In this document: positions 26,993-43,764 of the stretch, piece after piece | How positions within the stretch are numbered: position 1 is the first letter of the stretch | Layout: every line of letters starts with the position of its first letter | Source: Ostreococcus lucimarinus | Taxonomy: Eukaryota | Assembly (NCBI GenBank): GCA_000092065.1 | Contig: CP000583.1 | Reading direction: 5' to 3' (one strand) | DNA length: 64,000 nt | The notes under the pieces: generated by a model | Database searches by the model: none | What the model was told of the DNA's origin: nothing | Seen by the model: the letters and a program-made list of their open reading frames with translations, nothing else | Made by a program: the position numbers and the translations under genes

Positions 26993-27074
26993 ATGGCGCG
27001 ACGACCGGCGAAATGCTATCGCGTGATTAAGAACAAACCGTACCCGAAGTCTCGTTACTGCCGGGGCGTGCCGG
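26993..27074 (+). CDS. RPL10: 60S ribosomal protein L10 (uL16) exon 1
   Basis: ATG GCG CGA CGA CCG GCG AAA TGC TAT CGC GTG ATT AAG AAC AAA CCG TAC CCG AAG TCT CGT TAC TGC CGG GGC GTG CCG G encodes [27 protein letters not shown]. This is the universally conserved RPL10 N-terminus. It is followed by the donor GTGCGTG. Confidence 0.8.
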
Positions 27075-27177
27075 GTGCGTGCGGTGACGCGACGACGCGC
27101 GCGGAACGAGCGATCGAATAACCCTAAAACGAACGCGCGACTGACGACGAACGCGCGACGCGTGCGATGATGCGCAG

Positions 27178-27256
27178 ATCCTAAGATTCGCATTTACGAT
27201 GCGGGGATGAAGAAGTATTCGTGCGACGCGTTCCCGGCGTGCGTGCACCTCGTGAG
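27178..27256 (+). CDS. RPL10: 60S ribosomal protein L10 exon 2
   Basis: Acceptor gcgcAG. The exon encodes (D)[25 protein letters not shown], matching RPL10 DPKIRI(Y/F)DVG.... Donor GTACGT at 27257. Intron 1 carries CGACTGACGA 37 nt before the acceptor. Confidence 0.8.
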
Positions 27257-27418
27257 GTACGTATCGAGCGATGACGCGCGCGTGATGATGGGCGCGAGAG
27301 ACCTAAACCGTGCGCGGAGCGCAGGGACGGTGATGCGCGTGGGGGGACGCGCGCGACGCGTGCGATGGGTGACGGAGGATGAGGACTGACGAGACGTTAT
27401 TTTTACATCGACGCGCAG

Positions 27419-27938
27419 TTTCGAAAAGGAGCAAATCGGCTCTGAGGCGATGGAGGCGGGACGTATCGCGGCGAACAAGTACATGGTGACCAAGGCTGGG
27501 AAGGAAGGTTTCCACCTTCGCGTGCGCTTGCACCCGTTCCACGTGTTGCGCATCAACAAGATGTTGTCGTGCGCGGGTGCGGATCGCTTGCAAACGGGTA
27601 TGCGTGGTGCGTACGGTAAGCCGCAAGGTGTCGCCGCGCGAGTGTCCATTGGTCAAATCATGTTGTCGATTCGAACCAAGGATGTGCACGCGGACAAGGC
27701 TGTCGAGGCGTTCCGTCGTGCCAAGCACAAGTTCCCGGGCCGCCAAAAGATTGTCAAGTCTAAGCAGTGGGGTTTCACGAAGTACTCCCGCGATGACTAC
27801 ATGAAGTGGAAGGATCAAGGCCGCATTGAGCCGGATGGTGTCAACGCGAAGATCGTCCAACACCACGGTCCGCTCGCGGCCAAGCCGGCGAGCCAACTCT
27901 TCCTCAACGCGGCTCGCAGGTACAAGGTTGCCCTTTAA
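27419..27938 (+). CDS. RPL10: 60S ribosomal protein L10 exon 3 (to stop)
   Basis: Acceptor gcgCAG after the branch motif GAGGACTGACGAG. The exon encodes [71 protein letters not shown]..., which is collinear with human RPL10 to the C-terminus. The three exons total 681 nt, 226 aa. Confidence 0.85.
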
Positions 27939-28058
27939 GTGGATCAAACTTTTAGAAGTTTGAGCTTTTTAGAAGTTTGTGATCGTGAACTTATCGAGTT
28001 TTCGTAAAAAAATGCGTCTCCACTTACAAATACAACCGCGCTAATGCGTTAGATTTAC

Positions 28059-29552
28059 TCACGGCTCGCCCGCCGCGAGTCGACAACCGATGAGCTGATA
28101 GTACGTGTCGCTCGAACGCACGCGTTCACCGTCAACTAATCGAACGGAAACCGCAGAATCGTTCGATTTCGGTGCTCCCACGCACTCGAGCCGGCCACAG
28201 AACATGAACTGTCCCGGCGGACGGCGCACGAAGAGCAACGCATTGTCCGTCGCTTCGCCCGCGGATTCAGGCGTGAGTTCTGCGGACTTCGATCGCCCAA
28301 CGCGAGCAATGTCACTATCGTGAGCGCCTGCCGCTTTTCCGTCCCATGTCATGTACAGCTCGCCGTCGCGTTCCCAGAAAGACGTAGGGCCTCTTGTCTG
28401 CGGTTTGCCTACAGAGACGAATAGGGAAATCGCGTTCGCCCAAGTGTCTACGTTGCGCCCGTCGTTCTTCGTGCGAATGGGAGTATCGCCAGAGAGCAAA
28501 TCGACGGCGCCTTTTCGACCGCTCACAAGCGTCTTTCCCACACTTTCTAACGAATTCACGACGTCTGCGGTGGCTTTTTCGATTGGGGTCTCGCGCGCGA
28601 ACTGACACGGCTTACCTTGCCCACCCCTCTTAGCCGCCTTCTTCGCCTGCTTCTGAGCCAACGCGCGCACTTTTTTCACCTTTCTCGGAAGTCCTCGAAG
28701 AGGTTCACCTAGCTCGACGACCGTGCGTAGTACGCGCGGGATCTCCGCCTCGTCCTCTATCATAGTTAGGCACTTGTCAAAAATCAAACACAAGCTGTAC
28801 CCATCCGCCGCAGCGTACGCCATCTGGCTTTCCGTGAGCGGTCGTTTCCCCCAGTCACTGCACTGTTCTTTTTTATCCAATAAACACCCTATAACCTGTC
28901 GCGTCAGCACAGCCAATCCACAACGCAAAGGCGTTTTATTCGGCATCGCCGCATACGCCAATTGTTTCACGTCGACAAGATTTCGACTCTTCTCTTCCCA
29001 AACACTCAGATGAGAGTAAGACGCCTTCATACGTTTGACATCGTACGCAAAACTAAACCCAAGTTTGTACACGCCCTCGCTCCAAAGCACGGCTTTTAAG
29101 AGCTCATCCGTCGCCACATTTAACGACTCGCCCGCGCTCCGCGGCGCTGTAGCCAGTAAATCAATCAAAAACACCTCCTCTCGCGTCGCGATTTGCAACA
29201 GTGCCACGGGAGTATTATCCCCAGGTCGCCACTCCGCGTCCAGTCCCAAACACGGGGGCGTTCGCACGCTCGTCGACGTCTCGTTTTCATCCGTCCCGGC
29301 CGCCGCGAGCGCGAGCACGACCTCCGTCGCGCGCTTCAGCCCGTCGACGTCGTCGACCCAATACACGCGATCTTCCGGTACGTTGGGCAGTGGAGTGTAT
29401 CGGTCGTTCTTTTTCGCGTTCGGCGCCGTCGTAGGCGCACTCGGAATGACGGCATTCGCGCGAATGCTTTGCGCCCGGCGGCTGCTTTTCGGCGACTGCC
29501 GTTGACGCGCATGCGCGGTGAACGGCGACGCGCGCGCGGCGGTGACGCGCAT
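28059..29552 (-). CDS. 3'-5' exonuclease (DEDDy, WRN-exo/RNase D-like) domain protein with an uncharacterised C-terminal domain
   Basis: ...VYWVDDVDGLKRATEVV...CLGLDAEWRPGDNTPVALLQIATREEVFLIDLL... is the exo I motif, followed by ...AAADGYSLCLIF... which is exo III with the conserved Y. A 150-aa C-terminal domain (...FMFCGRLECVG...) is unassigned. Confidence 0.7.
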   Translation of the reverse strand: MRVTAARASPFTAHARQRQSPKSSRRAQSIRANAVIPSAPTTAPNAKKNDRYTPLPNVPEDRVYWVDDVDGLKRATEVVLALAAAGTDENETSTSVRTPPCLGLDAEWRPGDNTPVALLQIATREEVFLIDLLATAPRSAGESLNVATDELLKAVLWSEGVYKLGFSFAYDVKRMKASYSHLSVWEEKSRNLVDVKQLAYAAMPNKTPLRCGLAVLTRQVIGCLLDKKEQCSDWGKRPLTESQMAYAAADGYSLCLIFDKCLTMIEDEAEIPRVLRTVVELGEPLRGLPRKVKKVRALAQKQAKKAAKRGGQGKPCQFARETPIEKATADVVNSLESVGKTLVSGRKGAVDLLSGDTPIRTKNDGRNVDTWANAISLFVSVGKPQTRGPTSFWERDGELYMTWDGKAAGAHDSDIARVGRSKSAELTPESAGEATDNALLFVRRPPGQFMFCGRLECVGAPKSNDSAVSVRLVDGERVRSSDTYYQLIGCRLAAGEP

Positions 29553-29677
29553 TTAGAGCGTGTGACTCCGGCGTCCTCGCTCGTCGACGACGGACTAGCG
29601 TCGACTCGTAGGACGCGGCGAAGTGCAGACGGCGCGAGAGGGCGGAGACGCAACGCGTGCTACGTAATGTTACACAT

Positions 29678-30868
29678 CTAAGGTTTGTTTTGCCGACGCT
29701 GCGCGGTGCGCATTTCGGCCCATTTAGGTGCTTTAGGGGCTTGTTTCATTTTTGTCGTCTCCGAATGACGCTTGAAATCGCCCTTTGGGGCGTTCGCGGG
29801 CGCTTCCATGTTTGGCGCCGTTTTGTACATTTCCAAGAGCTTGCGCTTGACGTCGTCGTCTCTCACACCGACGTTGCTCATCTTTTTTGAACTGTTCCAT
29901 CGCGCTGCGATGGCCATCTCTTGGAGTATTTCTTTTTCTCCCTGACTCGCCTTACGAAGCTCCTCCACGAAGGCTTTGGCGGTGACGACGTACGCCCCCG
30001 TCCCTCTCGCGATCGAGCTCAACGCGTTATCCGAAGTCGCCACGTACACCACTCGATTGGACTTTTTATCGGCTCCAATCTCTTGCGCGACGCGCGCCTC
30101 TATCCACGAGTCCGCGTCGTTCTTCACGCTGTACACCGTCATGAATCCATCGACGTCGAGATCACCCTCGATCTCGTCCTCGTCTTTATCCCGGTTTCGA
30201 TCGGCGTCCCACACCAACGCCACGGCGTACCCGCTAAAGCTCTTAAAATCCATCACCTCCTTCGTCAGCGCGACTCGCGCCGCGTCCATGTCCCCTCGTC
30301 TAAACGCCGCATTCGCCTCCTCGACCCCATCCGCGCCCTCTAATCCGCACACGTTATACCCATCCACGAGCAACAACGGCGGCTCCCCGCCGCCGCTAAA
30401 TCGTTCCAGCTCGCTTCGCAGTCGCGCCTCGCGTTTCTTCTCCGCCCTTCGTCGCGCCAGCTCCGCCTCGTACGTTCGATCCCGCGTTCCATCCGCGCCT
30501 TTTCGTCTCCCTCCCTCGATCGGTTTCGCGCTCGTCCCGCTCGTCCCTCGCCCCGCGTTTGCCCTCGCGTTCGCGTTCGATCCGTCGCCGCCGCTCAGCG
30601 ACTTGAACCGCTCCACGAGCTTGATTTGCGTCGCGACGCTCATCCCGTTCGTCCGCTTCGTGATCCTCGGCGGCGGCGTCGACGACGCGTCCCTCGCGCC
30701 TCGATCGTCGCCCTCGCGTCGCTTGCCCTTGCTCGCGCGCGCCGCGACGTCGCCGCGTCGTCGCCGCGTCGACCTCGACGTCGACGTCCCGCTCGTCGTC
30801 ATCGCGCGCGCGACGCCCGCGCGCGACGCGCGCGACGCGCTCGACGGCGCGAAGACGTCGAGCGACAT
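29678..30868 (-). CDS. NYN/YacP-like (PIN-fold) ribonuclease domain protein
   Basis: ...PLLLVDGYNVCGLEG...ALVWDAD...FMTVYSVKNDADSWIEARV...VVYVATSDNALSSIARGTGAYVVTAKAFVEELR matches the YacP-like NYN domain. The start is set at the ATG at 30868 (MSLDVF...). The 139-aa Arg-rich extension up to 31285 overlaps the divergent carrier gene and is rejected. Confidence 0.65.
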   Translation of the reverse strand: MSLDVFAPSSASRASRAGVARAMTTSGTSTSRSTRRRRGDVAARASKGKRREGDDRGARDASSTPPPRITKRTNGMSVATQIKLVERFKSLSGGDGSNANARANAGRGTSGTSAKPIEGGRRKGADGTRDRTYEAELARRRAEKKREARLRSELERFSGGGEPPLLLVDGYNVCGLEGADGVEEANAAFRRGDMDAARVALTKEVMDFKSFSGYAVALVWDADRNRDKDEDEIEGDLDVDGFMTVYSVKNDADSWIEARVAQEIGADKKSNRVVYVATSDNALSSIARGTGAYVVTAKAFVEELRKASQGEKEILQEMAIAARWNSSKKMSNVGVRDDDVKRKLLEMYKTAPNMEAPANAPKGDFKRHSETTKMKQAPKAPKWAEMRTAQRRQNKP

Positions 30869-30955
30869 CTCGCGCGTCGCTCGACGGCGCGTCGGCGCGC
30901 GGTCGCGCGAGCGAGGGCGCGAACGTCTGGCGCCGGCCGCACACGCGCGCGCGTC
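30869..30955. promoter_or_regulatory. 87-bp divergent promoter between the NYN gene (minus) and the mitochondrial carrier gene (plus)
   Basis: Head-to-head ATGs at 30868 and 30956. Confidence 0.4.
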
Positions 30956-31089
30956 ATGACGACGCCGACGGCGACGACGACGACGGCGGCGACGCGCGCG
31001 AGCGCGAGCGCGAGGTCGAGCGACGCGCCGAGTTTGACGTTCGCCGCGATCGCGCGGAGCCTGATCGCGGGCGGCGTCGCGGGGGGAGT
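30956..31089 (+). CDS. Mitochondrial carrier family (SLC25) protein exon 1
   Basis: MTTPTATTTTAATRASASARSSDAPSLTFAAIARSLIAGGVAGG(V). The first carrier helix ends in the canonical LIAGGVAGGVS. Donor GTGTGCGTG at 31090. Confidence 0.7.
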
Positions 31090-31239
31090 GTGCGTGCGAG
31101 CGATCGCGAGGCGGCTCGACGGCGGCTCGACGGGACGCATCTTGCTCGAAGACGCCGCGCGCGACGCGCGCGAGCGCGCGCGCGGCGTCCGCGAGGACGG
31201 TGAACGGCGCGACTGACGCGCGCGCGATCGCGAACGCAG

Positions 31240-31288
31240 GTCTCGAACGGCGGTGGCGCCGTTGGAGCGGTTGAAGATTTTGCAACAG
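31240..31288 (+). CDS. Mitochondrial carrier family protein exon 2 (49 nt)
   Basis: Acceptor aacgCAG after CGCGACTGACGCG. Encodes (V)SRTAVAPLERLKILQQ, the PLERLKIL carrier signature. Donor GTGCGCG at 31289. Confidence 0.7.
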
Positions 31289-31404
31289 GTGCGCGAGAGA
31301 CGCGAGACGCGAGACGACGACGACGACGAGGGATTTTCGACGCGACGCGACGCGCGAGCGCGACGAGGGACTGACGGTGCGCGCGCGCGCGCGATGAATC
31401 GTAG

Positions 31405-32244
31405 GTTTCGTCGAGTTCGGCGTATAATGGGGTGTATTCGGGGCTGTCGCACATGTGGAAGACGGAGGGCGTGAAAGGTTTGTTCAAAGGAAACGGCGCG
31501 AACTGCGTGAGAATCGTGCCGAATAGCGCGGTGAAGTTCTTTTGTTACGAACACATGGCCCACGGGTTGTTGGATTTGAGGCGAACGTTCGATAAAGACG
31601 CGGAGATGGATGTGTTGACGCGCTTGGGGGGGGGCGCCGGGGCGGGCATCGTCGCCATGTCGGCGACGTACCCTCTGGATATGATTCGAGGGCGATTGAC
31701 GGTGCAAAAGTCTGCGGCGGACGCCGCGAAGAGTGGGGGGGCAAATTATCGAGGTATTTATCACGCGTTTACGGTTATCGCGCAAAAGGAGGGTTTCGGG
31801 GCGTTCTACAAGGGATGGACGCCATCCGTCATCGGCGTAATCCCGTACGTGGGCTTAAACTTTGCCATTTACGAGACGCTCAAGGACCAGACGGTGAAGA
31901 TGCAAGGGTTGCGATCAGCGTCTGATTTGAGCGTTTTCGCGGGATTAGTCTGTGGGGGTGTCGCGGGTGCGGTCGGTCAAACCGTGGCCTATCCTTTCGA
32001 CGTCTGTCGACGTCGTTTACAAGTCTCCGGCTGGGTCCAAGCCGGCGTCCAAGCCGGCGGTCCCGTGTACACGGGCATGTTCGACTGTTTCCGTCGTACC
32101 GTCGCCGAGGAGGGCGTCTCCGCCCTGTTCCACGGTCTCAGCGCCAACTACATCAAAATCATGCCCTCGATCGCCATCGCCTTCGTCGTCTACGATCAAC
32201 TCAAGATCATTCTCAAGCCGGAAATCAAAATCTCCGCGGGCTGA
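31405..32244 (+). CDS. Mitochondrial carrier family protein exon 3 (to stop)
   Basis: Acceptor tcgTAG after GGGACTGACGG. Encodes VSSSSAYNGVYSGLSHMWKTEGVKGLFKGNGANCVRIVPNSAVKFFCYE... through repeats 2 and 3 (PLDMIRGRL, PFDVCRRRLQV). Total 340 aa. CoA/adenine-nucleotide carrier-like. Coordinates near here are uncertain by +/-1. Confidence 0.75.
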   Translation, partial: VSSSSAYNGVYSGLSHMWKTEGVKGLFKGNGANCVRIVPNSAVKFFCYEHMAHGLLDLRRTFDKDAEMDVLTRLGGGAGAGIVAMSATYPLDMIRGRLTVQKSAADAAKSGGANYRGIYHAFTVIAQKEGFGAFYKGWTPSVIGVIPYVGLNFAIYETLKDQTVKMQGLRSASDLSVFAGLVCGGVAGAVGQTVAYPFDVCRRRLQVSGWVQAGVQAGGPVYTGMFDCFRRTVAEEGVSALFHGLSANYIKIMPSIAIAFVVYDQLKIILKPEIKISAG

Positions 32245-32498
32245 GCGTCGACGCGACGGTCGCCGTCGCCGCCGTTCTGTTCGCCTCGACGCGTTTCGCC
32301 CTCGCCTCGTCGCCCCTCGTCGCGCGACGGCGCGGCGCGCATCGCATCTATTTAATTTTCGAGATTCTCGACATCCTAGCCATCGCGCTCGCGTCCTCGC
32401 GTCCTCGATCCCCGCTCGGCTCGCGTCCCGCTCGGCGTCTCGCCGAAAAGCGAAAAGTCGCGTCATTCCCCCGCGATCCGATCCATTCGTCATCCGTC

Positions 32499-32567
32499 AT
32501 GTCCAACCCCGTGTGCTACTTCGACATCGAGATCGGCGGCCAGCCCGCGGGTCGCATCGAGATGACC
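32499..32567 (+). CDS. CYP: Cyclophilin-type peptidyl-prolyl cis-trans isomerase exon 1
   Basis: ATG TCC AAC CCC GTG TGC TAC TTC GAC ATC GAG ATC GGC GGC CAG CCC GCG GGT CGC ATC GAG ATG ACC encodes MSNPVCYFDIEIGGQPAGRIEMT, the cyclophilin A N-terminus. Donor GTGCGT. Confidence 0.8.
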
Positions 32568-32717
32568 GTGCGTCTTCGCTCGCGCGCGCGCGAACGCGAC
32601 GCGCGCCCGACGCGCGCGACGTTCGATCGCATCGCCGCCGATCGCCGCCGCGCGGAGATTATTAGATTGCTTCCGGAACGACGATGACTGACGAATCGCG
32701 CGCCTTCGTCGTCGTAG

Positions 32718-32748
32718 GTTCGCGCGGACGTCGTGCCGAAGACCGCGG
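32718..32748 (+). CDS. CYP: Cyclophilin exon 2 (31 nt)
   Basis: Acceptor tcgTAG after GATGACTGACGAA. Encodes VRADVVPKTA(E), matching plant cyclophilin L(F/Y)ADVVPKTAE. Donor GTGCGTG. Confidence 0.75.
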
Positions 32749-32904
32749 GTGCGTGCGCGCGAGCGGCGGCGCGAATGATGCGCGCGCGCGGGTGATGATC
32801 GATCGGGATGAGCGCGGCGCGTAATCCGATCGGTTGACTCGGCGGCGACGGGACGGCGACGAACGAACGAACGGAGACTGACGATGGGTTTCTCGCGCGA
32901 TAGA

Positions 32905-33298: not shown

Positions 33299-33422
33299 GG
33301 GCGACGCGCGTCTGCGTTACGTAAACCTGCCTTGATACGACGAGTTGATCCACGAGCGATGAATCGTTATTACTACTTTACAATAAAATGACGAAGCCTA
33401 CAATCGCCACCGCGCGTCGCCT

Positions 33423-33962: not shown

Positions 33963-34039
33963 CGCGCGCGAGAGACGCGCTGTGAAGGCAGAGGGCACGA
34001 CGCGGCGCGCGCGATTAAATGATTTTGTTACACGGAGAT

Positions 34040-35481
34040 TTAACGAATCCACGGCGACGCCAGGCCGAACGGGCTCAGGGTGTCCATAATTTGCTTGTTC
34101 AGCGCGCGGCCGAGCACGACTTGGGCTTCGTCGGGGCGAATCGGAATGACGGGATGGCTGGCGCCGCCGGAAACGCCCGCGCCGGAGACGACGCATCTGC
34201 GTAAAAGAGAATTTCCAGCCTCTAAACCGCTGACGTAGGCGCGCTCTTGGCACAAGCCCTTAGCGCCGTGCTCTCTGTCGCCCATGCGCACCCAATCTCC
34301 CGCGCATACGATGTTTGAAATGGACGTTTCGAGCGGCGGTCTTTTCGAATACGAGCCTGGAGAGAACCAGGAAACCGCTCCCGGGTACCTTCGCACTTCA
34401 AAGTCGACAGCTTTGACGCCCTTGAATCCCGGTACGGCGGCCGGAAGGAGCTCGTCCGTTAATAGTTTTACGATATCATCATCGCTCAAGCACGCGATGG
34501 CGCCGCCGTTGTAGAAATCGGCGGCGATGACGCTTCCTTTTGGCTCTTCGCCACCCCACAATTCAACTTCCGAGTCTTTTTGCAACTGGTCCAACATGAA
34601 GAAAGTACCCCCGGCGCCACGAAGGGCTTCAAATCTACTGAATACATTCGCTGGATGCTGCACGTCCACGTACTGATCCAACCAGATTCGCGTCGCCACG
34701 ACGTCAATGCCGCCGAGCGACGCTGCGGCGCTAAACTCTGGCGCCATGCGAGCCAAGACGGGAGAGTTGGACACCACGCTCTTCATGCCCTTTGCGCCGA
34801 GCGCGAAGACCACCGCATCAACGTCTTTGATCACGCCTGCTTTCCCGCCGTCCTTTTTCAGGTAGTGCACCGCCGTCGCCTTTTTTGTCGCCTCGTCCAC
34901 TTCAACTTTGCTGACAAACGTCGAGCCCATGACTTTCAATCCGTATTCGCTCTGCAGGCGAGCCATCGTGGGCCCGACGATGACTTCGGCTATACTCTTC
35001 GTCTTGATCCAGCGCACGTCGAACGAGTCTTGGTGCGCCAACGCGTAGTAATACAACAATTCCATCACGACAGCCGCCGAAAGCTCCTCTGGTGGCTTGA
35101 ACAACCCGACGAGCAACGTCGGGCGAATGAAATCGTCCACCAGTCGCTTACTCAATCCCATGCGAATGAACAGCTCGTGCGCAGTGAGCCTATCGTACGC
35201 CTCAAACGTCTTCTCATCGCGATTCAAATCCAACATCGCGTACAGCAAGCCGACCATCGTCACCCTATCGCTCAGAGGCAGTCGTTTAAAGTTATCGAAA
35301 GTCGCAAACACCTGTCCGAGAGGGCTCGGGAGCGCCATCGAATCCCCAAACACCGGCGCCGTCGCCTCCAACCCGTCCGGCGACCAAAACGAACTCGGCG
35401 TGAATTCTGTGAACGCATCCTTTTCGTCGATGTTCATCTCTCGACACAGATCGGAGATATTAGGATAATCTTTCCAAAACC
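34040..35481 (-). CDS. Amine oxidase / carotenoid desaturase-like exon 2 (to stop)
   Basis: Minus-strand intron 35482-35584 with branch GACGACTGACGATG and acceptor TTCAG. The exon encodes (G)FWKDYPNISDLCREMNIDE... (compare PDS FFGAYPNVQNLFGELGI) through ...NIVCAGDWVRMGDREHGAKGLCQERAYVSGLEAGNSLL, the C-terminal FAD-contact motif of the PDS/ZDS/amine-oxidase family. Total 605 aa. Confidence 0.75.
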
Positions 35482-35584
35482 CTGAATCATCGCACAAAGT
35501 TTCGTTTCATCGTCAGTCGTCGCGCTCTCTCGCGCACGCGAGCGACGCGCGTCGTCGTTCTTTTCGTCGTCATTCTACACGCAC

Positions 35585-35960
35585 CGCGTGTTCCCGCCTC
35601 GAACGGTTTCCCGCTCTTCGTCAGCGTCGGCGTCGCGCCCGTGGGGTCGTCTTGCACGTCGACGAGCGTCACGTCCGCCCCGGCTTCGCACAGCGATTTC
35701 GCGGCGCCGATGCCGCCCCAGCCGGCACCGATGACGACGACTTTGGATATCGCATTCGCGCGCGCTGACGACGTCGCTGACGCCGCGACGCGCGTCGACG
35801 CGCGCGCACGAGGACGAGCGCGGTGTTTGGTCGCGACGTGCGCGCGCGCGCGCGCGCGCGAGGCCTGCGCGCCGAGCATATTCGCGCTCTGCGCGCCGAC
35901 GAGTGACGTCGGTCGGGCGGCTCGAGCGCAGCCGAGCCGAACGCGAATTCGATGAGTCAT
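35585..35960 (-). CDS. FAD-dependent amine oxidase / carotenoid desaturase-like (PDS/ZDS superfamily) exon 1 with plastid-type transit peptide
   Basis: ATG at 35960. MTHRIRVRLGCARAARPTSLV... is Arg/Ala/Ser-rich, followed by the dinucleotide-binding motif KVVVIGAGWGGIGAAKSLCEAGADVTLVD and ...KSGKPFEAGTRG. Donor GTGCGTGTAG on the minus strand at 35584. Confidence 0.7.
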
Positions 35961-37519: not shown

Positions 37520-37912
37520 CGACCGACGCTTGTGATGATGACGATGACGGTGCGCGTCGGCATCTTCATCGGTCGATGGCGTCGCCGACGCGACCGCGAC
37601 GACGCGACGGGCGACGGTTCTACCGCAAACGTTATCCGAGCGTTGGTTTCGCGCGGCGCGCGGCGCGCGCGGCGCGAGACGCGTCGTCGTCGCCGCCGCG
37701 AACATGTCGTTCGCCGGCTGGAGAGGTGCGTTGTGAAGGCCGAGGCGCGACCGCGACGAGCGAAAACGCGCGAGAGCGGGAAGTTCGATGCGATGGACGC
37801 TCTGATGAAACGTAAAATTCGTATTTTTCAACGCGTGCCTCTTAGACTTTTGCGGACGCGCGCGAAGCGATGCGCGACGACGCCGTCGTCGTCGTCGTCG
37901 TCGTCGTCGCGT

Positions 37913-38548
37913 TTAATACTTTCTGAAATTGAGACTCTCTCTCTCCGCCAGCATGGCGCGTCCGTACGCCTCGCAAAACTTCTTCTTCGCGTCCTCGCGA
38001 GACAACCCTTTGAGCTTGTTCCAAAAATCCCATCGCTCGCGATCGTCGTAGGCGATGCCACCGTGCGACGCCCACATGGGCTTTTCGCCGACGCAGTCGC
38101 CCTTCTCCGCCTGCTGCTTCGCCGCGTACAGCGCGTACCAATCATCCGGACGACACACCGCCCCTCCCGGCTTCGGCAGCATGCGCCACTTATGCACGTG
38201 TTCCTTATCCCAATTTTTCGCCAGCGTTTCGTACTCTTCCACCGCTGGACACTCCCACGTGACCTCCTCCTCCGTCTCTCGTCGTCGCTCCTCGACGAAC
38301 ACCTCGCCGCCGACGCTCGGCGCTTTCAATTCATTAAACGCGAACACCCGCTTAAAGTTCGACAGCGAGTTCACCGAGAACATTCGAAAGAATCCATCCA
38401 TATCCGCCCTTCGCGTGAGCGGCTTCGCGTCGTCGATCCCGGGCCGGACGAATCCCCGCGCCAGCGCCGTCTCCGCGACGTCCCGCGCCGTGACGTCCCT
38501 CACCAGGTGCCAACCTTTTCCAGAGCGCGCGAAATCGATCACCGCCAT
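37913..38548 (-). CDS. Acyl-CoA-binding domain (ACBP) containing protein
   Basis: The C-terminus ...YAAKQQAEKGDCVGEKPMWASHGGIAYDDRERWDFWNKLKGLSREDAKKKFCEAY fits the ACBP four-helix signature (...KAKWDAWN.LKG.SKEDA...). The N-terminal 120 aa are unassigned. Confidence 0.65.
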   Translation of the reverse strand: MAVIDFARSGKGWHLVRDVTARDVAETALARGFVRPGIDDAKPLTRRADMDGFFRMFSVNSLSNFKRVFAFNELKAPSVGGEVFVEERRRETEEEVTWECPAVEEYETLAKNWDKEHVHKWRMLPKPGGAVCRPDDWYALYAAKQQAEKGDCVGEKPMWASHGGIAYDDRERWDFWNKLKGLSREDAKKKFCEAYGRAMLAERESLNFRKY

Positions 38549-38770
38549 CGCGTCGCGCGTCCTCGGCGTCCGTCGTCGCGCGCCCTGCGCGTTTTAATTT
38601 TTTTTTCTCGTTTCACGTCGCGCGCGGCGTCGCGCGTCGTCGTGTGCGGCGCGCGTAACGCCCGCGAAACGTCCGTTCGGCGCCTCGAAATTCGTCAAAG
38701 ATTTGACATCGACTCGACGTCGCGTCGCGTCGACGCCCGCATCGCGCCGCGCGGCGATCGCGCGCGGCGC

Positions 38771-38892
38771 GATGGACGACGACGCGTTCGAAGGCGACGA
38801 CGCGCTCGAGTTCTGCGACGGGCGCGGCGCGCGGTACGCGCGCGCGTCGTACGGCGCGGGAACGCCGTCGTCGTCGCTCAACGGTCGAGGTC

Positions 38893-38932
<40 letters not shown>

Positions 38933-40088
38933 GACGCGCGCGAGGGAACGCGACGACGACGACGACGACGCGAAAGACGCGGACGCGCGCGTCGGCGCGG
39001 TGCGAGCGCTGAGCGACAGCGACAGCGAGGAGGAGGAGGAGGAGGAGGACGCGCTCGGCGGGACGAGCGCGGCGAGAGCGTGGAGCGCGTACGATCCGTC
39101 CGCGGCGGCGAAAGTGTCGGGCGATGGCGCGCTAGCGGTGATAGAAGAGAAGGAACGCGTCGCGAGGGAGGCGGAGGAGAGGGCGAAGGCGCTGTTGAAC
39201 GCGAGAGGGAGACCGAAGCGCGACGCGGCGCTCAAGACGGAGAGAGCGAAGGCGAGCGAGGGAACCGACGTCATCGCCGCGACGTCGCGAAAGAAGCTCA
39301 GTGAGGGTGAGAAAAAAGTAGAAGGCGTGGCGACGGCAGTGGTGTGCGAGCGTTCGTCCATGCGAATCAGCGCGTCGGCGGAGGAGAGAGCGCCGGCGTC
39401 AAAGAAGACGAGCGGCGAAAAGAAGAAGCGCGCGCCGACGACGAAGACCGCGGTCACCAAGGCGAAAAAGTCGCAAAAGACGACGAATGATTCGAGTGCG
39501 ACGCACCGCGTGCTGTTGAGCTCGGGGTTCAGCCCGCGTCAGGTGAAGGCTTTGAGCAAGAAGATTGAGTCGCTCGGCGGCGACATCGCGACGTCGTTGC
39601 GCGACTTCACCGTCTTCGTCACCGAAGCGCCTTTGAAGCGAACGAAGAACGTGATGGCGTCAGCTTTACAGAATTGCCCGATCGTCAAGGCTGATTGGCT
39701 GGAAAAGTCCACGACGAGCGGGAAGTTTCTCCCGACGCAGAAATTTCTCCTCCGCGACAAAGCGTTTGAACGCGCGCACGCCTACAATCCAATGATCGAG
39801 CGCGACCATCCGTTTCGTGGCAAGACGTGGAGCATGTATGGCTCGACGGCATCCCCTAGCACTGGCGTAAACACCCGCGCCGGCGTCGAAGGCGTGGTCT
39901 TGGACTTACTCTCGCTCGGCGGGGCGAAACGCGCAACCGCCGACGGCGACTTCGTCCTTCGCCTCGACGCGGGCTCTTCGTCGTCAAAGACCCCCGACCG
40001 CGTGACCTACCTCAAAACCCCCAAAATCCCGATTTACACCCCATCCCACGTCCTCGCGGCGTGCCTCGACGGCGTTCTCCCGTCTTAG
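38771..40088 (+). CDS. BRCT-domain protein with a long poly-Asp/Glu acidic region
   Basis: MDDDAFEGDD..., a (GAC)n-encoded DDDDDDDDDDDD run, an EEEEEE run, then the BRCT fold ...HRVLLSSGFSPRQVKALSKKIESLGGDIATSLRDFTVFVTEAPLKRTKNVMASALQNCPIVKADWLEKS.... The reported ORF start at 38703 is a non-ATG codon. Confidence 0.6.
38893..38970 (+). repeat. (GAC)n trinucleotide repeat encoding poly-Asp; two runs of 13 and 7 units
   Basis: gacgacgacgac... at 38893-38931 and 38952-38970, inside the BRCT-protein CDS. Confidence 0.8.
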
Positions 40089-40220
40089 CGCTCGTAAATA
40101 TCTCACTCCAAGTATAGCCATCAACACGGACTTTGAACGCTCGACACCGTCGCGCGCGCCCACGACGCCGTCTTTTCCGCGCTCGCCTCGTCGCGACGCC
40201 CCGAAGCGAGCAAAGGAACG

Positions 40221-40256
40221 ATGAGCGCCGAAGAAGAAAAGGCTCCCCAAATCGAG
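40221..40256 (+). CDS. NACA: Nascent polypeptide-associated complex alpha subunit (NACA) exon 1
   Basis: ATG AGC GCC GAA GAA GAA AAG GCT CCC CAA ATC GAG encodes MSAEEEKAPQIE. Donor GTGCGTCG. Confidence 0.7.
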
Positions 40257-40441
40257 GTGCGTCGAGCGCGACGAAACGCGCGCGAAGACGCGCGACGCGA
40301 CGCGCGCGAAGACGAGAATAGGGTTTCGTATCGACCGCGATGCGAGCGGTCGAGCGCGAAATGCGACGCGATGCGACGCGCGCGCGACGCGTTTAAGCGT
40401 GGAAATTAACGACGTGAAATCGTTCGCACGCGCCGACGCAG

Positions 40442-40475
40442 GATGTTGAGTCCGATGAGGAGGAAGATGACCACG
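40442..40475 (+). CDS. NACA: NACA exon 2 (34 nt, acidic)
   Basis: Acceptor gacgCAG. Encodes DVESDEEEDDH(A), the acidic stretch typical of NAC-alpha N-termini. Donor GTACGTCG. Confidence 0.65.
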
Positions 40476-40600
40476 GTACGTCGATTCGATGCGCTCGCGC
40501 GCGGGACAAACCCGATGCCTTGGTGATCCGATGTTTGGCGAGAAGAATGAATCGCGCGCGCGTCGACGGACGGTTGGCGGTGAGAGCGGGCGTGAGATGA

Positions 40601-41086
<486 letters not shown>

Positions 41087-41805
41087 GCTACTTTGTCGAG
41101 TCGTGGGTGAACAAAGAACGCGCGCGGTACGTGAAGATGAGCGCGACGAGTAAAACGCGATACTCTGTAACTAATCCGTCGGTTCTTTTACATCAAGCGC
41201 TCTCGCGAGCGTCGCCTCGCGCGTCGACGACTCGCCGAACCGTCGCCGTCGCGCCGAATCGCGCGGCGTTCAAACAATCAACCATCAATCGCGAAAGCAC
41301 ACCGAGCCCGTATTATTTCTTCTTATTACCCTTGCCCTTCTTCGCTCCCTTCTTCACCGCCTGTCGTCCCGCGCGCGTTCGCGTCGTCGGTCAGTCTCGC
41401 TTCGCGTTATCCAGTCCCCCGTCTCTCGCCCGCCCCCTCGCGCGTCTCCCGTCTCGATTCGCGCCCGCGCCCGCGCGCGTCTCCCCCCGCGCCTCCGCCG
41501 CGCGCCTTTCGAAGCGCGCGCGGTCGGCTCGCGCGTCCACGCACCTCCTCCGCCGCGATCTTTTCGTCGCGCGCGCGTCGCCATCGTCCCAGCGCGCTCT
41601 CCGCGTCCGCGCCCGAGCGCGCGGCGACGACGGCGCCGCCCACGAACGTCGCGCTCGCCACCGCAAACGCGGCGTTCAGCGTGCAGAACGGCATCGTCGC
41701 GAGTCGTCGTCCGCGCGCGCGAGTGCGGCGGCGACGGCGACGGTCGACCGACTGACCTAGAGCGTCGCCCCGCACACGCGCGCGCGCGCGCGCCGAGCGA
41801 CGACG

Positions 41806-41952
41806 ATGCTTCGAGCGATCGCGCGAGCGTCGCGAGCGGTCGCGGGCGTCGACGCGCGGCGACCGACGGGACGGGCGATCGACGCGCGACGCGCGGTCGG
41901 GACGTTCGTCGGCGCGGAGAGCGAGGAGTTGGCGTACGCGCCGACGAAAAAG
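41806..41952 (+). CDS. Small mitochondrial-presequence protein exon 1
   Basis: MLRAIARASRAVAGVDARRPTGRAIDARRAVGTFVGAESEELAYAPTKK is Arg/Ala-rich and amphipathic, a classic mitochondrial-type presequence. Donor GTGCGCGCG. Confidence 0.5.
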
Positions 41953-42089
41953 GTGCGCGCGCGCGACGAGCGCGACGACGGCGCGCGCGACGGCGCGATG
42001 GGAGGACGACGACGATGCGCGCGCGTCGATGGACGGCGCGCGAAGGGACGAACGCGGGACTGACGCGACGCGCGCGCGCGAAAACGTAG

Positions 42090-42434
42090 GTGAAATTCGA
42101 ACCGACCGAACCGACGTTCATGACGCAGTTCACCCTGAACCGCGCGAACGCCAAGAGCACGATGGAGGGCGCGGAGGACGCCGAACGGTTGGTCGCGCGT
42201 CTGATCGGGATGCTCGGCGGGAGCTTGAAGACGTTTTACGTGACGCAGACGGGGGCGTTTGACGGCGTGTGCGTGTACACGTTTCCGAAAAACCACGACT
42301 CGAGGACGTTCACGTGCCTGCTGCGATCGAGCGCGGGGTACGATAGGATCGAGACGACGAAGTTGATGGCGAGCGCCGACGCCGCGATGTGCGCCAAGGC
42401 GGCGCGCGAGGTGGAGAAGCAGTTGAAGAAGTGA
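42090..42434 (+). CDS. Small mitochondrial-presequence protein exon 2 (to stop); unknown function, weak dsRBD-like alpha-beta-beta-beta-alpha pattern
   Basis: Acceptor aaacgTAG after CGGGACTGACGCG. The frame continues VKFEPTEPTFMTQFTLNRANAKSTMEGAEDAERLVARLIGMLGGSLKTFYVTQTGAFDGVCVYTFPKNHDSRTFTCLLRSSAGYDRIETTKLMASADAAMCAKAAREVEKQLKK*. Total 163 aa. Confidence 0.5.
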   Translation: MKFEPTEPTFMTQFTLNRANAKSTMEGAEDAERLVARLIGMLGGSLKTFYVTQTGAFDGVCVYTFPKNHDSRTFTCLLRSSAGYDRIETTKLMASADAAMCAKAAREVEKQLKK

Positions 42435-42625
42435 GCTCGGGACGTTTCGGACGCCGCCGCGCCGAGTCGACGAATCGTCGATGCGCGCGCGCGTCGCGTC
42501 CCAGTTAGAATAACGCACCGTCTCACCACCATTCGCGCATATGTTGTAATTAGACCACGCGCAGTCGTCTCGTCGACGTCGTCTCGTCGTTCGTCTCCGA
42601 CGTCACTTCTCGAAGCGCCGCCGCG

Positions 42626-42754
42626 ATGCCGTCGCCGTTCCCCGAGCGCCCCTTCGGCGTCGTCGATTCCACCGCGTACGCGCTCGAGGGGATGTACATG
42701 CCCAATCCCGGGGAGTTCGAACCTCCAAAGCTCACTTACGACGACTCTAACGCG
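42626..42754 (+). CDS. THOC3: THO complex subunit 3 (THOC3/TEX1) exon 1
   Basis: ATG at 42626 gives MPSPFPERPFGVVDSTAYALEGMYMPNPGEFEPPKLTYDDSNA. Donor GTACGCG. Confidence 0.65.
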
Positions 42755-42840
42755 GTACGCGCGACTGTTTACGACGATTTCGACGACGATTGCGCAACCT
42801 CGAATCCGCGACTGACTCGAACGGTTTCGCGTCGTGTCAG

Positions 42841-43764
42841 CGAACGACGACGCTCGTGGGGGGTAAGAAAGCCGTGAAGACCGTGCAGTGGTCGGTGGGA
42901 GGCGATAAGCTCGCGTCCGGGGGAGTGGAGCACGACGTGCGCGTGCACGATGTCGAACACGGGGCGGGCACGGGACGAGGGGCGCAGACGCTTCGAGGAC
43001 ACGCGGGCGCGGTGGAGCAATTGCGGTTCGATCCGTCGCGTCAAGGAGGTGATCGCGCGCTGACTGTGAGTTCGGATAAAACGGCAAAGATTTGGGACGC
43101 GAAGAGCGGGAAATGCGCGGGGACGATCGAGATGAAGGAAGGATTGATGAACGCGGCGTGGTCGCCGAGCGGGCGGCACGTCGCCGTCGGGAGCAAGTCG
43201 GACGTGATCTCGATCGTCGACGTGACGACGATGAAGGTGATTTGGGAGCAAAAGTTCAAGTACGAGGCGAATGAGATGATGTGGGATAAGACCGGGAAAT
43301 CGTTCATGATGGCGACTGGAGAAGGGAAAATGGAAAAGTTTACGTTTGACGAGACGACGGGATCGTTGACGCCGCTTTCATCGCATTTTGCACATAATGG
43401 CGGGTGTTACTGCATGGCGATCGACCCTACCGGAAAGTATCACGCCATGGGTGCTGCAGATGCGATCGTGAGCTTATGGGAGTCTGAAACAAACATCTGC
43501 TACGACACTATCGTGCGCTTGGACTACCCGATTCGCTCAGTTTCCTACAGCCACGATAGCCGATATATAGCCGCCGCTTCGGAAGATTTAAAAATAGATG
43601 TCGCAGAGGTGATGACTGGCGATTGCGTGGCACAAATCAAAACGAAAGAGGCGATGAATACCATAGCGTTTCACCCGAAGGAATTGGTTCTGGCGTACGC
43701 CGGCGACGGGGGAGATATTTCGCTGTGGAGCGCGTTCACCGCCATCTCTGCAGGTACAAAGTAG
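42841..43764 (+). CDS. THOC3: THOC3/TEX1 exon 2: WD40 propeller (to stop)
   Basis: 86-nt intron with CGCGACTGACTCG and acceptor gtgtCAG. The exon encodes RTTTLVGGKKAVKTVQWSVGGDKLASGG...TVSSDKTAKIWDAKSGKCAGTIEMKEG...MGAADAIVSLWESETNICYDTIVRLDYPIRSVSYSHDSRYIAAASEDLKIDVAEVMTGD..., collinear with human THOC3 (...GSADALVSLWDVDELVCVRCFSRLDWPVRTLSFSHDGKMLASASEDHFIDIAEVETGD...). Confidence 0.8.
   Translation, partial: RTTTLVGGKKAVKTVQWSVGGDKLASGGVEHDVRVHDVEHGAGTGRGAQTLRGHAGAVEQLRFDPSRQGGDRALTVSSDKTAKIWDAKSGKCAGTIEMKEGLMNAAWSPSGRHVAVGSKSDVISIVDVTTMKVIWEQKFKYEANEMMWDKTGKSFMMATGEGKMEKFTFDETTGSLTPLSSHFAHNGGCYCMAIDPTGKYHAMGAADAIVSLWESETNICYDTIVRLDYPIRSVSYSHDSRYIAAASEDLKIDVAEVMTGDCVAQIKTKEAMNTIAFHPKELVLAYAGDGGDISLWSAFTAISAGTK

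What the first reader, a model, noticed from the sequence alone, without database searches (positions are those of the whole stretch)
26993..43764. Highly stereotyped short introns (GTGCGT/GTACGT donor, CTGAC branch, YAG acceptor) clustered at gene 5' ends; possible introner-like family
I mapped 17 introns by hand in RPL10, the SLC25 carrier, cyclophilin, NACA, the small mitochondrial-presequence protein, THOC3, the amine oxidase, the beta-rich gene, AAMP and possibly RPL11. All but the AAMP intron are 53-185 nt with a GTGCGTG or GTACGT donor and a CTGAC branch motif 20-35 nt from the acceptor, and all but the AAMP and exon-3 beta-rich introns fall in the first ~150 coding nt. The AAMP intron is ~237 nt, lies near the 3' end of the gene and has no obvious CTGAC. 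The uniform design and GC-rich, GCGCGACG-laden bodies resemble the introner elements described in Micromonas. The ORF track misses every one of these splits. It reports RPL10, cyclophilin, NACA and THOC3 as truncated or extended ORFs.
Basis: seen in the sequence. Interest (0 to 1): 0.55.

Follow-up and report, generated by a model that had tools for sequence, protein, structure and literature searches.

The report
Ordinary stereotyped introns of Ostreococcus
These are the normal introns of the tiny green alga Ostreococcus lucimarinus; their near-identical splice signals were published in 2008, and they are not copies of a mobile "introner" element.

Summary
The window is Ostreococcus lucimarinus CCE9901.

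I verified 17 introns of 86-326 nt. All have GTRCGY donors. Fifteen have (G/C)ACTGAC branch sites, and the branch A lies 22-33 nt from a YAG acceptor. The combined signal occurs 16 times against 2.6 expected by chance.

It is also published. Irimia & Roy (2008) described GTGCGTG donors, GACTGACG branch sites and a 20-35 nt spacing for EST-confirmed O. lucimarinus introns outside chromosome 2.

The introner reading fails:
- Intron bodies resemble each other no more than they resemble intergenic DNA.
- "GCGCGACG" is equally dense in intergenic DNA.
- There are no terminal inverted repeats or target-site duplications.
- 13 of 14 intron positions examined are shared with diverged Ostreococcus lineages.
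- The same repeat tool finds a genuine introner-like family in a Micromonas-like control contig.

Two by-products emerged. The amine-oxidase intron is a gain specific to the O. lucimarinus lineage, source unknown. A plant-type telo-box (AACCCTA) sits in the first introns of RPL10, NACA and RPL11; it is conserved across lineages for RPL10 and NACA.

The parts
27075..27177 (+). RPL10 (uL16) intron 1, 103 nt; GTGCGTG donor, GACTGACG branch 33 nt from CAG; contains the telo-box AATAACCCTAAAACG
   Evidence: (the spliced protein equals XP_001416736.1). The position is conserved in L016 and L017.
27257..27418 (+). RPL10 intron 2, 162 nt; GTACGT donor, GACTGACG branch
   Evidence: The position is conserved in L016 and L017.
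31090..31239 (+). SLC25 mitochondrial carrier intron 1, 150 nt
   Evidence: (equals XP_001416737.1). Conserved in L016, L017 and L018. Absent from Micromonas-like single-ORF homologs.
31289..31404 (+). SLC25 intron 2, 116 nt; body holds a (GACGAC)n run
   Evidence: Conserved in L016, L017 and L018.
32568..32717 (+). Cyclophilin intron 1, 150 nt
   Evidence: (equals XP_001416738.1). Conserved in L016, L017 and L018.
32749..32903 (+).
   Evidence: Conserved in L016, L017 and L018.
35482..35584 (-). Amine-oxidase-type (cyanobacterial-like FAD oxidoreductase) intron, 103 nt, phase 1; a gain specific to the O. lucimarinus lineage
   Evidence: Present in the window, L001-L004, L013-L015 and L030/31/33. 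Absent from L016/L021/L023, L017, L018/L024 and L022. No TSD or TIR. No paralogous copy found.
40257..40441 (+). NACA intron 1, 185 nt; non-consensus branch (AATTAACG); contains the telo-box AATAGGGTTT (reverse orientation)
   Evidence: Position and TAGGGTTT are conserved in L016, L017 and L024.
40476..40649 (+). NACA intron 2, 174 nt; GTACGT donor, CACTGACG branch
   Evidence: Conserved in L016, L017 and L024.
41361..41544 (-). Intron in a small 65-aa gene between NACA and the GYD gene, 184 nt
   Evidence: Conserved in L016 and L017.
41953..42089 (+). GYD-domain ('small mitochondrial-presequence') protein intron, 137 nt
   Evidence: (equals XP_001416741.1). Present in L023 and L024; absent from L017, which indicates a loss there.
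42755..42840 (+). THOC3-like WD40 gene intron, 86 nt
   Evidence: My spliced model is not an exact match to any record. Present in L013 and L023. An in-frame 75-nt GTGCGC...CAG insert at the same site in L024 is probably the same intron.
45857..46093 (-). AAMP-like WD40 gene intron, 237 nt, near the 3' end; GTACGT donor, branch GACTTACG (one mismatch to consensus), T-richer
   Evidence: Present in L023 and L024.
59023..59140 (-). 'Beta-rich' gene intron 1, 118 nt
   Evidence: the spliced ORF is intact. No Pfam family. Not examined in other lineages.
58654..58903 (-). 'Beta-rich' gene intron 2, 250 nt
58362..58499 (-). 'Beta-rich' gene intron 3, 138 nt
59711..60036 (+). RPL11 (uL5) intron 1, 326 nt, directly after the ATG codon; contains the telo-box AATAGGGTTTT at 59836-59842
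   Evidence: Exon 2 starts the Ribosomal_L5 domain at residue 7.

Best explanation
These are the canonical U2-type spliceosomal introns of Ostreococcus lucimarinus. They are not copies of a mobile element.

In this intron-poor, very compact genome the splice signals have become nearly invariant. The pattern is a GTGCGTG-type donor, a GACTGACG branch site at a fixed 20-35 nt from the acceptor, and a YAG (often CGCAG) acceptor. The sequence between the signals is unconstrained and has the same GC-rich, CpG-rich low-complexity composition as intergenic DNA.

Most of the introns are old. Their positions are shared with other Ostreococcus lineages while their bodies have diverged to background similarity.

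Two further points are inferred, not shown here.
- They cluster in this window because it is rich in highly expressed housekeeping genes (RPL10, RPL11, NACA, cyclophilin). Introns are preferentially kept in such genes in this species.
- They sit near 5' ends, as in other intron-poor genomes. The likely reasons are 3'-biased loss through cDNA recombination and retention of 5' introns that help expression.

At least some first introns also carry a conserved telo-box-like element.
For: **Shown**
- Identity of the genome and exact agreement of the spliced models with four annotated proteins. Transcript-derived ORF for RPL10.
- Signals in 17 of 17 introns, with the composite module 16 observed against 2.6 expected.
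- Irimia & Roy 2008 report for EST-confirmed non-chromosome-2 introns of this very genome: a GTGCGTG 5' splice site (4.8 bits), 87% ACTGAC, 66.5% GACTGACG, branch-to-AG distance 20-35 bp, and a CGCAG preference.
- Verhelst 2013 reports AG|GTGCGT and NCTGAC for canonical, non-introner Micromonas introns.
- No inter-intron similarity above the nulls.
- GCGCGACG is equally dense in introns and intergenic DNA. Intron base composition follows the sense-strand bias seen at 4-fold degenerate sites.
- 13 of 14 examined positions are conserved across Ostreococcus lineages. Orthologous bodies are only 64% identical, against 57-61% for non-orthologous pairs.
- No TIRs or TSDs.
- Positive control: the same repeat finder detects about four copies (three direct, one partial inverted) of an introner-like intron in a 21-kb Micromonas-like contig. 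The three direct copies are 80-86% identical and score 48-57 pairwise.
- O. lucimarinus CCE9901 (GCA_000092065.1) is in the GenBank genome list behind the systematic introner screen of Gozashti 2022. It does not appear among the introner-positive species in the tables held here.
- Lanier 2008 reports that introns are over-represented in highly expressed O. lucimarinus genes.
Against: - One intron, in the amine-oxidase-type gene, is a gain specific to the O. lucimarinus lineage. It has perfect consensus signals and no identifiable source. Intron gain by some mechanism has therefore occurred since the lineages split.
- The SLC25 introns are missing from the Micromonas-like orthologs. Genus-level gains cannot be told apart from losses elsewhere.
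- Only 64 kb of the genome was compared directly. The genome-wide statement rests on published screens.
- Four introns (three in the beta-rich gene, one in RPL11) were not examined in other lineages.
Confidence: 0.9

Rival explanations
1. A currently or recently active introner family. Under this reading the introns are copies of one mobile element, either a DNA transposon or a reverse-spliced RNA. It would carry its own splice signals and have spread into the 5' ends of many genes, as in Micromonas pusilla.
For: - The introns have a uniform design, similar lengths and GC-rich bodies with recurring GCGCGACG strings.
- They are locally dense: 12 introns in about 17 kb.
- One true lineage-specific gain exists, the amine-oxidase intron.
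- Relatives do carry such elements. L020 has an introner-like family, and Micromonas introners are documented.
Against: - Similarity between intron bodies does not exceed shuffles or intergenic controls.
- The best matches are low-complexity strings that are equally common outside introns.
- 13 of 14 positions are conserved across the genus.
- There is no presence/absence variation among contigs 92-100% identical to the window.
- There are no TIRs or TSDs.
- An 18-mer from the gained intron's 3' module hits only its own orthologous locus among the Ostreococcus-like metagenome contigs.
- The published genome-wide screen lists no introners for this assembly in the tables held.
Confidence: 0.03
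2. An eroded ancient introner burst. Many of these introns would have been inserted by an introner in the Ostreococcus ancestor, after the split from Micromonas. Their bodies would since have diverged to background, leaving only the selected splice signals.
For: - Both SLC25 introns are present in all four Ostreococcus lineages but absent from the single-ORF homologs of 60-65% identity.
- Orthologous intron bodies are already at near-background identity between Ostreococcus lineages (64% against 57%). Any older family signal would therefore be erased.
Against: - It is untestable from sequence similarity.
- Absence in Micromonas is equally explained by loss there. Verhelst 2013 reports that only 47% of canonical intron positions are shared even between two Micromonas strains.
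- The uniform signals need no common origin. Irimia & Roy 2008 show the same convergence in unrelated intron-poor eukaryotes.
Confidence: 0.06
3. Sporadic intron gain by intron transposition or repair-mediated insertion, on top of an old canonical set. Under this reading the amine-oxidase intron, and perhaps a few others, arose in one of two ways. Either an existing intron was copied by reverse splicing, or filler DNA was inserted at a break and later optimised.
For: - The amine-oxidase intron is a clean 103-nt insertion at ...CGCG|G(G/A)TT... in a gene that is intronless in five other lineages. The gene is of cyanobacterial type.
- The intron carries perfect GTGCGTG and GACTGACG signals at the canonical spacing.
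Against: - No donor intron or source sequence was found in the window, the related loci or the metagenome scan.
- This is a single case.
- Its signals could have been optimised after insertion. The L013 variant already differs at the donor (GTGCGTA) and the branch site (GATTGAC).
Confidence: 0.35

Closest known systems
Canonical (non-chromosome-2) spliceosomal introns of Ostreococcus lucimarinus, as described by Irimia & Roy 2008 (PLoS Genet 4:e1000148) and Lanier et al. 2008 (PLoS One 3:e2171)
   Same: Same genome. The GTGCGTG-type donor, the ACTGAC/GACTGACG branch site, the 20-35 nt branch-to-acceptor distance and the CGCAG-like acceptor all match. So do the typical length (published median 111 nt, here 150 nt) and the enrichment in highly expressed genes.
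   Different: Nothing essential differs. The window simply holds a locally dense sample. Two of the 17 introns have one-off branch variants (GACTTAC, AATTAAC).
Micromonas introner elements: IE-A/B/D in M. pusilla CCMP1545 and IE-C in RCC299 (Worden 2009, Verhelst 2013, Simmons 2015, Huff 2016)
   Same: Short introns in a related alga that use the same lineage-wide splice signals: GYRAGU or GTGCGT donors, GACUGAC branch, CAG acceptor.
   Different: Introners are defined by sequence similarity among many copies in unrelated genes. That is absent here. They are also lineage-specific insertions, whereas 13 of 14 positions here are conserved across the genus. The positive control L020 shows what such a family looks like with the same tools.
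Introns of hemiascomycete yeasts (GTATGT / TACTAAC / YAG; 5'-biased; concentrated in ribosomal-protein genes)
   Same: An intron-poor genome with near-invariant donor and branch signals, introns near 5' ends, and over-representation in ribosomal-protein and other highly expressed genes. Irimia & Roy 2008 treat the two as convergent, and Lanier 2008 draws the same parallel.
   Different: The consensus sequences differ (GTGCGTG and GACTGACG here). Ostreococcus keeps far more introns, in about 20-25% of transcripts, and has a second, weak-signal intron class on chromosome 2.
Plant telo-box (AAACCCTA), a cis-element of ribosomal-protein and translation genes
   Same: The same core motif occurs in genes of the same functional class. 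It lies about 100-130 nt downstream of the ATG. In Arabidopsis and rice the motif lies about -60/-80 to +140/+180 of the TSS and is enriched in the first two introns.
   Different: Here it lies inside first introns of a chlorophyte alga. Function is untested. Only three genes were seen, and no site II or TEF partner motif was looked for.

Membership tests
Introner / introner-like element family | Many introns in non-homologous genes share sequence similarity that extends to near both splice sites | tested here: not met
   All-vs-all Smith-Waterman scores match the shuffle and intergenic nulls. The repeat finder finds only low-complexity families mixing coding, intergenic and intron DNA. The positive control L020 gives three direct copies at 80-86% identity plus one partial inverted copy.
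Introner / introner-like element family | Recent, lineage-specific insertions: absent at orthologous sites in close relatives, or polymorphic | tested here: not met
   13 of 14 examined positions are conserved in other Ostreococcus lineages. There is no presence/absence variation in contigs 92-100% identical to the window. The one exception is the amine-oxidase intron.
Introner / introner-like element family | Transposon hallmarks (terminal inverted repeats, target-site duplication) for DNA-transposon introners | tested here: not met
   Terminal 30-nt arms score 4-11 out of 30. The longest repeat shared across the two junctions is 5 nt or less, of the AG|GT(G) type. The amine-oxidase insertion site shows no duplication.
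Introner / introner-like element family | Detected by a genome-wide intron-similarity screen of the assembly | not testable with these tools
   Only 64 kb of the genome is held here. Gozashti 2022 drew on a GenBank genome list that includes GCA_000092065.1. The species is not in the introner-positive tables held here, but the stored supplement is truncated.
[quoted passage not shown] | Strong 5' splice site with consensus GTGCGTG | tested here: met
   17 of 17 donors are GTRCGY: 8 GTGCGT, 3 GTGCGC, 5 GTACGT and 1 GTACGC.
[quoted passage not shown] | Branch site ACTGAC, extended to GACTGACG | tested here: met
   15 of 17 have ACTGAC and 10 of 17 have the full GACTGACG. The two exceptions differ at one or two bases.
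[quoted passage not shown] | Constrained branch-to-acceptor distance (about 20-35 nt) and a YAG / CGCAG-like acceptor | tested here: met
   The distance is 22-33 nt in all 17. All end in YAG and 6 end in CGCAG.
[quoted passage not shown] | Removed from transcripts (EST or RNA evidence) | tested here: inconclusive
   No reads are available here. Indirect support:
- Four spliced models equal curated NCBI proteins.
- An MMETSP transcript ORF spans both RPL10 junctions.
- The spliced NACA protein is present in Logan and JGI records.
- The published EST-confirmed set was not checked gene by gene.
Plant-type telo-box cis-element | AAACCCTA-type motif near the 5' end of translation-apparatus genes, conserved between species | tested here: met
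   Three of the four AACCCTA copies in the window lie in first introns of RPL10, NACA and RPL11. The motif is an invariant block in otherwise diverged RPL10 intron 1 (three lineages) and NACA intron 1 (four lineages).
Plant-type telo-box cis-element | Drives or modulates expression; bound by Pur-alpha or TRB-type factors | not testable with these tools
   Needs reporter or binding assays.

The most novel reading that the evidence does not exclude
Ostreococcus lucimarinus may still acquire new introns that arrive with ready-made consensus splice signals.

The 103-nt amine-oxidase intron was inserted after the split from the nearest other Ostreococcus lineage, into a gene of cyanobacterial type that is intronless everywhere else examined. 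It has a perfect GTGCGTG donor and a GACTGACG branch at the canonical spacing, with no TSD.

It could be a copy of another intron, made by reverse splicing, or a member of a very low-copy introner. In that case part of the 'stereotyped' set would be stereotyped by descent rather than only by convergent selection.
Probability: 0.1. Interest if true: 0.55.

Novelty: already known. Interest (0 to 1): 0.15.

Why it matters
The main finding re-discovers a published property of this genome. Its practical value is as a caution: uniform splice signals plus GC-rich low-complexity bodies can mimic a repeat family, and prokaryote-style ORF calling breaks these genes.

Two by-products could matter modestly.
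- **A dated intron gain.** There is a clean, lineage-specific intron gain in one of the most compact eukaryotic genomes. It is a concrete case for studying how new introns arise without an obvious introner.
- **A conserved telo-box.** Telo-box motifs are conserved inside first introns of ribosomal-protein and NACA genes. If this holds across all ribosomal-protein genes, the plant telo-box regulon would extend to prasinophyte algae. It would also give a functional reason why 5' introns survive in a genome under strong reduction.

Tried and rejected
1. **Introner family.** Rejected by all-vs-all alignments with shuffle and intergenic nulls, blastn-short against the window, the repeat finder with a positive control, and TIR/TSD checks.
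2. **GCGCGACG as a family signature.** Rejected. Its density is the same in intergenic DNA.
3. **T-poor, G-rich intron bodies as an intron-specific feature.** Rejected. The same sense-strand bias holds at 4-fold degenerate sites.
4. **Both NACA introns absent from L017.** This was my first reading of tblastn and it was wrong. The alignment had read through the introns in frame; inspection shows both are present.
5. **Truncated amine-oxidase ORFs (P0230, P0231) as further intron-bearing lineages.** Rejected. Both loci are intronless at the site.
6. **Source of the amine-oxidase intron.**
   - blastn against the window and eight related loci found only low-complexity hits.
   - A metagenome scan with an 18-mer from its 3' module returned 30 loci. 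Only three were Ostreococcus-like, and all three were the orthologous locus.
   - This is a weak negative. Matching was exact only, and coverage of the genome in that collection is unknown.
7. **18-nt identity between the two RPL10 introns** (27152-27169 and 27350-27367). It is not conserved in the sister lineage, so I treated it as low-complexity chance.
9. **Prior reports of telo-boxes in Ostreococcus introns.** Literature searches found none. Piganeau et al. 2009 (J Mol Evol 69:249), a phylogenetic-footprinting study of Ostreococcus, is not in the library and could not be checked.

Full report
**What the window is.** They are RPL10 XP_001416736.1, an SLC25 carrier XP_001416737.1, cyclophilin XP_001416738.1 and a GYD-domain protein XP_001416741.1. 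A single-exon gene of the window lies on metagenome contigs that are 99.8-100% identical over up to 21 kb. My THOC3 model has no exact match in the collection.

**The observation.** The listed intron coordinates are right to within one base. I also resolved three introns the list did not give:
- the AAMP-like intron (45857-46093, minus strand, 237 nt);
- the RPL11/uL5 intron (59711-60036, directly after the ATG);
- an intron in a 65-aa gene (41361-41544, minus strand).

That makes 17 introns of 86-326 nt, median 150 nt. Their signals are:
- all 17 donors are GTRCGY;
- 14 branch sites are GACTGAC and one is CACTGAC;
- AAMP has GACTTAC and NACA intron 1 has AATTAAC;
- the branch adenosine is 22-33 nt from a YAG acceptor in every case.

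The combined module (donor, ACTGAC, YAG at the right spacing) occurs 16 times. Dinucleotide shuffles give 2.57 +/- 1.58, maximum 6.

Transcript-level support is indirect but good. An MMETSP transcript ORF is colinear with spliced RPL10 across both junctions. The spliced NACA protein exists verbatim in public records.

The length range is wider than stated. The 5' bias is looser: 11 of 16 scored introns lie within ~153 coding nt and 13 of 16 within 183. The amine-oxidase intron follows 376 coding nt and the AAMP intron lies near the 3' end.

**It is already described.** Irimia & Roy (2008, PMC2483917) analysed EST-confirmed introns of this same genome. Outside chromosome 2 they report:
- a 4.8-bit 5' splice site with the 'atypical consensus GTGCGTG';
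- ACTGAC in 87% and GACTGACG in 66.5% of introns;
- a branch-to-AG distance of about 20-35 bp;
- a CGCAG preference at the acceptor.

They interpret this as convergence with other intron-poor eukaryotes. Verhelst et al. (2013) give AG|GTGCGT and NCTGAC as the signals of canonical, non-introner Micromonas introns. Simmons et al. (2015) note that different Micromonas introner families share only the donor, GacUGAC and CAG. Lanier et al. (2008) show that introns are over-represented in highly expressed O. lucimarinus genes, as in yeast. That fits a window holding RPL10, RPL11, NACA and cyclophilin.

**Test of the introner idea within the window.**
- Smith-Waterman scores between intron bodies, with splice signals removed, average 15.2 against 14.05 +/- 0.36 for dinucleotide shuffles. 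The best pair scores 30 against 26 +/- 2.3, with a shuffle maximum of 34.
- Intron-versus-intron scores (mean 13.7, maximum 27) are no higher at the top end than intron-versus-intergenic scores (mean 11.0, maximum 29).
- The best alignments are 65-70% identical strings of GCGCGACG and GACGAC. blastn-short hits of introns fall on coding and intergenic DNA as often as on other introns.
- GCGCGACG occurs at 5.8 per kb in introns and 5.7 per kb in neighbouring intergenic DNA.
- The T-poor, G-rich composition of intron bodies mirrors the sense-strand bias at 4-fold degenerate codon sites.
- No intron has terminal inverted repeats or a junction repeat longer than 5 nt.

**Positive control.** A 21-kb Micromonas-like metagenome contig (L020) was fetched because it carries the intronless ortholog of the SLC25 gene. 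On it the same repeat finder reports three direct copies and one partial inverted copy of a ~74-nt intron. The three direct copies are 80-86% identical end to end and have pairwise scores of 48-57. On the 64-kb window the same call returns only low-complexity 'families' at 60-80% identity that mix coding, intergenic and intronic DNA.

**Test across lineages.** I fetched syntenic contigs from close relatives of O. lucimarinus and from at least three more divergent Ostreococcus-like lineages.
- Close relatives: L013-L015, 92-98% nucleotide identity.
- More divergent lineages: L005-L012, L016, L021 and L023 form one. L017 is a second, and L018 and L024 a third. L022 carries only the amine-oxidase gene and groups with L017.

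The results by intron are:
- RPL10 (two introns), SLC25 (two), cyclophilin (two), NACA (two), the 65-aa gene and the AAMP-like gene: the introns sit at the same positions in every divergent lineage that covers the site, with the same signals.
- THOC3-like gene: the intron is at the same position in L023. L024 has an in-frame 75-nt GTGCGC...CAG insert at the same site, probably the same intron.
- GYD gene: the intron is present in L023 and L024 but missing from L017, which indicates a loss there.
- Orthologous intron bodies are only 64% identical on permissive global alignment, against 57% for non-orthologous cross-lineage pairs and 61% for non-orthologous pairs within the window.

These introns are therefore old, and their bodies have drifted to background. 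No intron is present or absent among the near-identical contigs.

**The exception.** The 103-nt intron of the amine-oxidase-type gene (35482-35584, minus strand) is present in the window and all close relatives (L001-L004, L013-L015, L030/31/33). It is absent, as a clean gap at ...CGCG|G(G/A)TT..., from L016/L021/L023, L017, L018/L024 and L022.
- The gene is 64% identical to cyanobacterial FAD oxidoreductases. More distant eukaryotic relatives encode it as an uninterrupted ORF.
- A neighbour-joining tree of the protein places (window, L013) as sister to L016. (L022, L017) and then (L018, L024) branch outside that pair. One gain on the O. lucimarinus branch explains the pattern; the alternative is three or more losses.
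- The intron has perfect GTGCGTG and GACTGACG signals at 31 nt, with no TSD or TIR.
- No related sequence was found in the window, eight related loci or a metagenome scan.
- In L013 its donor (GTGCGTA) and branch (GATTGAC) have already drifted.

This is evidence of occasional intron gain. It is not evidence of a family.

**Genome-wide context.** I could compare only 64 kb directly. The systematic introner screen of Gozashti et al. (2022) drew on a GenBank genome list that includes GCA_000092065.1. In the supplementary tables held here the species appears only in that list, whereas Micromonas species appear among the introner-positive genomes. The stored supplement is truncated, so this is supporting evidence, not proof.

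**Mechanism.**
- *Shown.* The introns are canonical and carry the species' consensus signals. Most are conserved in position and free in sequence.
- *Inferred from the cited literature and general knowledge.* In an intron-poor genome only introns with near-optimal U1 and branch-site pairing and fixed branch-acceptor geometry persist. The 5' bias reflects 3'-biased loss through recombination with reverse-transcribed mRNA, plus selective retention of promoter-proximal introns in highly expressed genes.

**A by-product that bears on retention.** The heptamer AACCCTA is the core of the plant telo-box and one unit of the plant-type telomere repeat. It occurs four times in the window, against 1.07 expected. 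Three copies lie in first introns of translation-related genes, each about 100-130 nt downstream of the ATG:
- RPL10 at 27120;
- NACA at 40319, reverse orientation;
- RPL11 at 59836, reverse orientation.

The fourth copy lies in the coding sequence of a gene on the minus strand (my reading: quinolinate phosphoribosyltransferase-like).

In the three-lineage alignment of RPL10 intron 1 the longest invariant block is AATAACCCTAAAACG, longer than the splice signals. TAGGGTTT is retained in NACA intron 1 in four lineages while the rest is unalignable.

In Arabidopsis and rice the telo-box lies about -60/-80 to +140/+180 of the TSS. It marks ribosomal-protein genes and is enriched in the first two introns. 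It belongs to a 'midnight' expression module. Cytosolic ribosome genes of O. tauri peak three hours before dawn. I found no report of this motif in Ostreococcus introns. One relevant 2009 footprinting paper could not be read. Function is untested.

**Verdict.** The introner interpretation is not supported. Interest is low. The lineage-specific amine-oxidase intron and the conserved intronic telo-boxes are the only items worth a further look.

Noticed in passing
window 27120-27126 (+), 40319-40325 (-), 59836-59842 (-); L016 5476-5594, L017 3155-3268, L016 18913-19106, L017 16140-16319, L024 ~7650: A plant-type telo-box core (AACCCTA/TAGGGTT) lies in the first introns of RPL10, NACA and RPL11, about 100-130 nt downstream of each ATG. 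These are three of only four copies in 64 kb. It forms an invariant block (AATAACCCTAAAACG in RPL10; TAGGGTTT in NACA) in otherwise diverged orthologous introns of three to four Ostreococcus lineages. It may be a conserved cis-element that helps explain retention of 5' introns.
   Followed up: partly
window 27295-27310; L016 ~5720-5735; L017 ~3390-3400: RPL10 intron 2 carries a second telo-like motif at about the same offset in three lineages. It reads GAGACCTAAACCG in the window, CAGACCCTACTCG in L016 and GTGACCCTACCGC in L017.
   Followed up: no
L020 1872-1945, 6576-6649, 12883-12956 (+) and 4446-4489 (-): A Micromonas-like metagenome contig carries a genuine introner-like family. There are three direct ~74-nt copies (AG|GTACGTATTTCCCA...GACTGATTGCCCATACAAGACTGACA(T)n) at 80-86% identity, plus one partial inverted copy, in different genes within 21 kb. 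I used it as the positive control.
   Followed up: partly
window 34040-35960 (-): The 'amine oxidase' gene is of cyanobacterial type. It is 64% identical to Synechococcus/Cyanobium FAD-dependent oxidoreductases annotated as hydroxysqualene dehydroxylase or zeta-carotene-desaturase-like, and it is also found in Guillardia. It is probably an endosymbiont-derived plastid enzyme.
   Followed up: no
L017 17670-18140: The GYD-domain gene is intronless in lineage L017 but has the intron in the window, L013, L023 and L024. This points to a precise intron loss in one Ostreococcus lineage.
   Followed up: partly
L019 10001-11149; L020 10001-11143: The closest non-Ostreococcus homologs of the SLC25 carrier (60-65% identity, Micromonas-like contigs) are single uninterrupted ORFs in a different gene neighbourhood. 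Both SLC25 introns are therefore either Ostreococcus-specific or lost there.
   Followed up: partly
whole window: ACTGAC occurs 24 times on both strands (21.6 +/- 4.5 expected by shuffles). Fifteen of the 24 are the branch sites of introns, which make up 4.3% of the sequence. That leaves about 9 outside introns, roughly half the expectation. This may reflect selection against cryptic branch sites.
   Followed up: no
window 27152-27169 and 27350-27367: An identical 18-mer (GCGCGACGCGTGCGATG-type) occurs in both RPL10 introns. It is not conserved in the sister lineage and is probably a low-complexity coincidence.
   Followed up: partly
L013 ~4890-4990 (minus strand of locus): In a relative 92% identical to the window, the gained amine-oxidase intron has a drifted donor (GTGCGTA) and a drifted branch site (GATTGACG instead of GACTGACG). 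Splicing there is untested.
   Followed up: no
window CDSs and introns (sense strand): There is a strong sense-strand compositional asymmetry. GC skew is +0.22 at 4-fold degenerate sites and +0.15 in intron bodies. T is only 12-13% in both. This is consistent with a transcription-associated mutational or selective bias in this genome.
   Followed up: no
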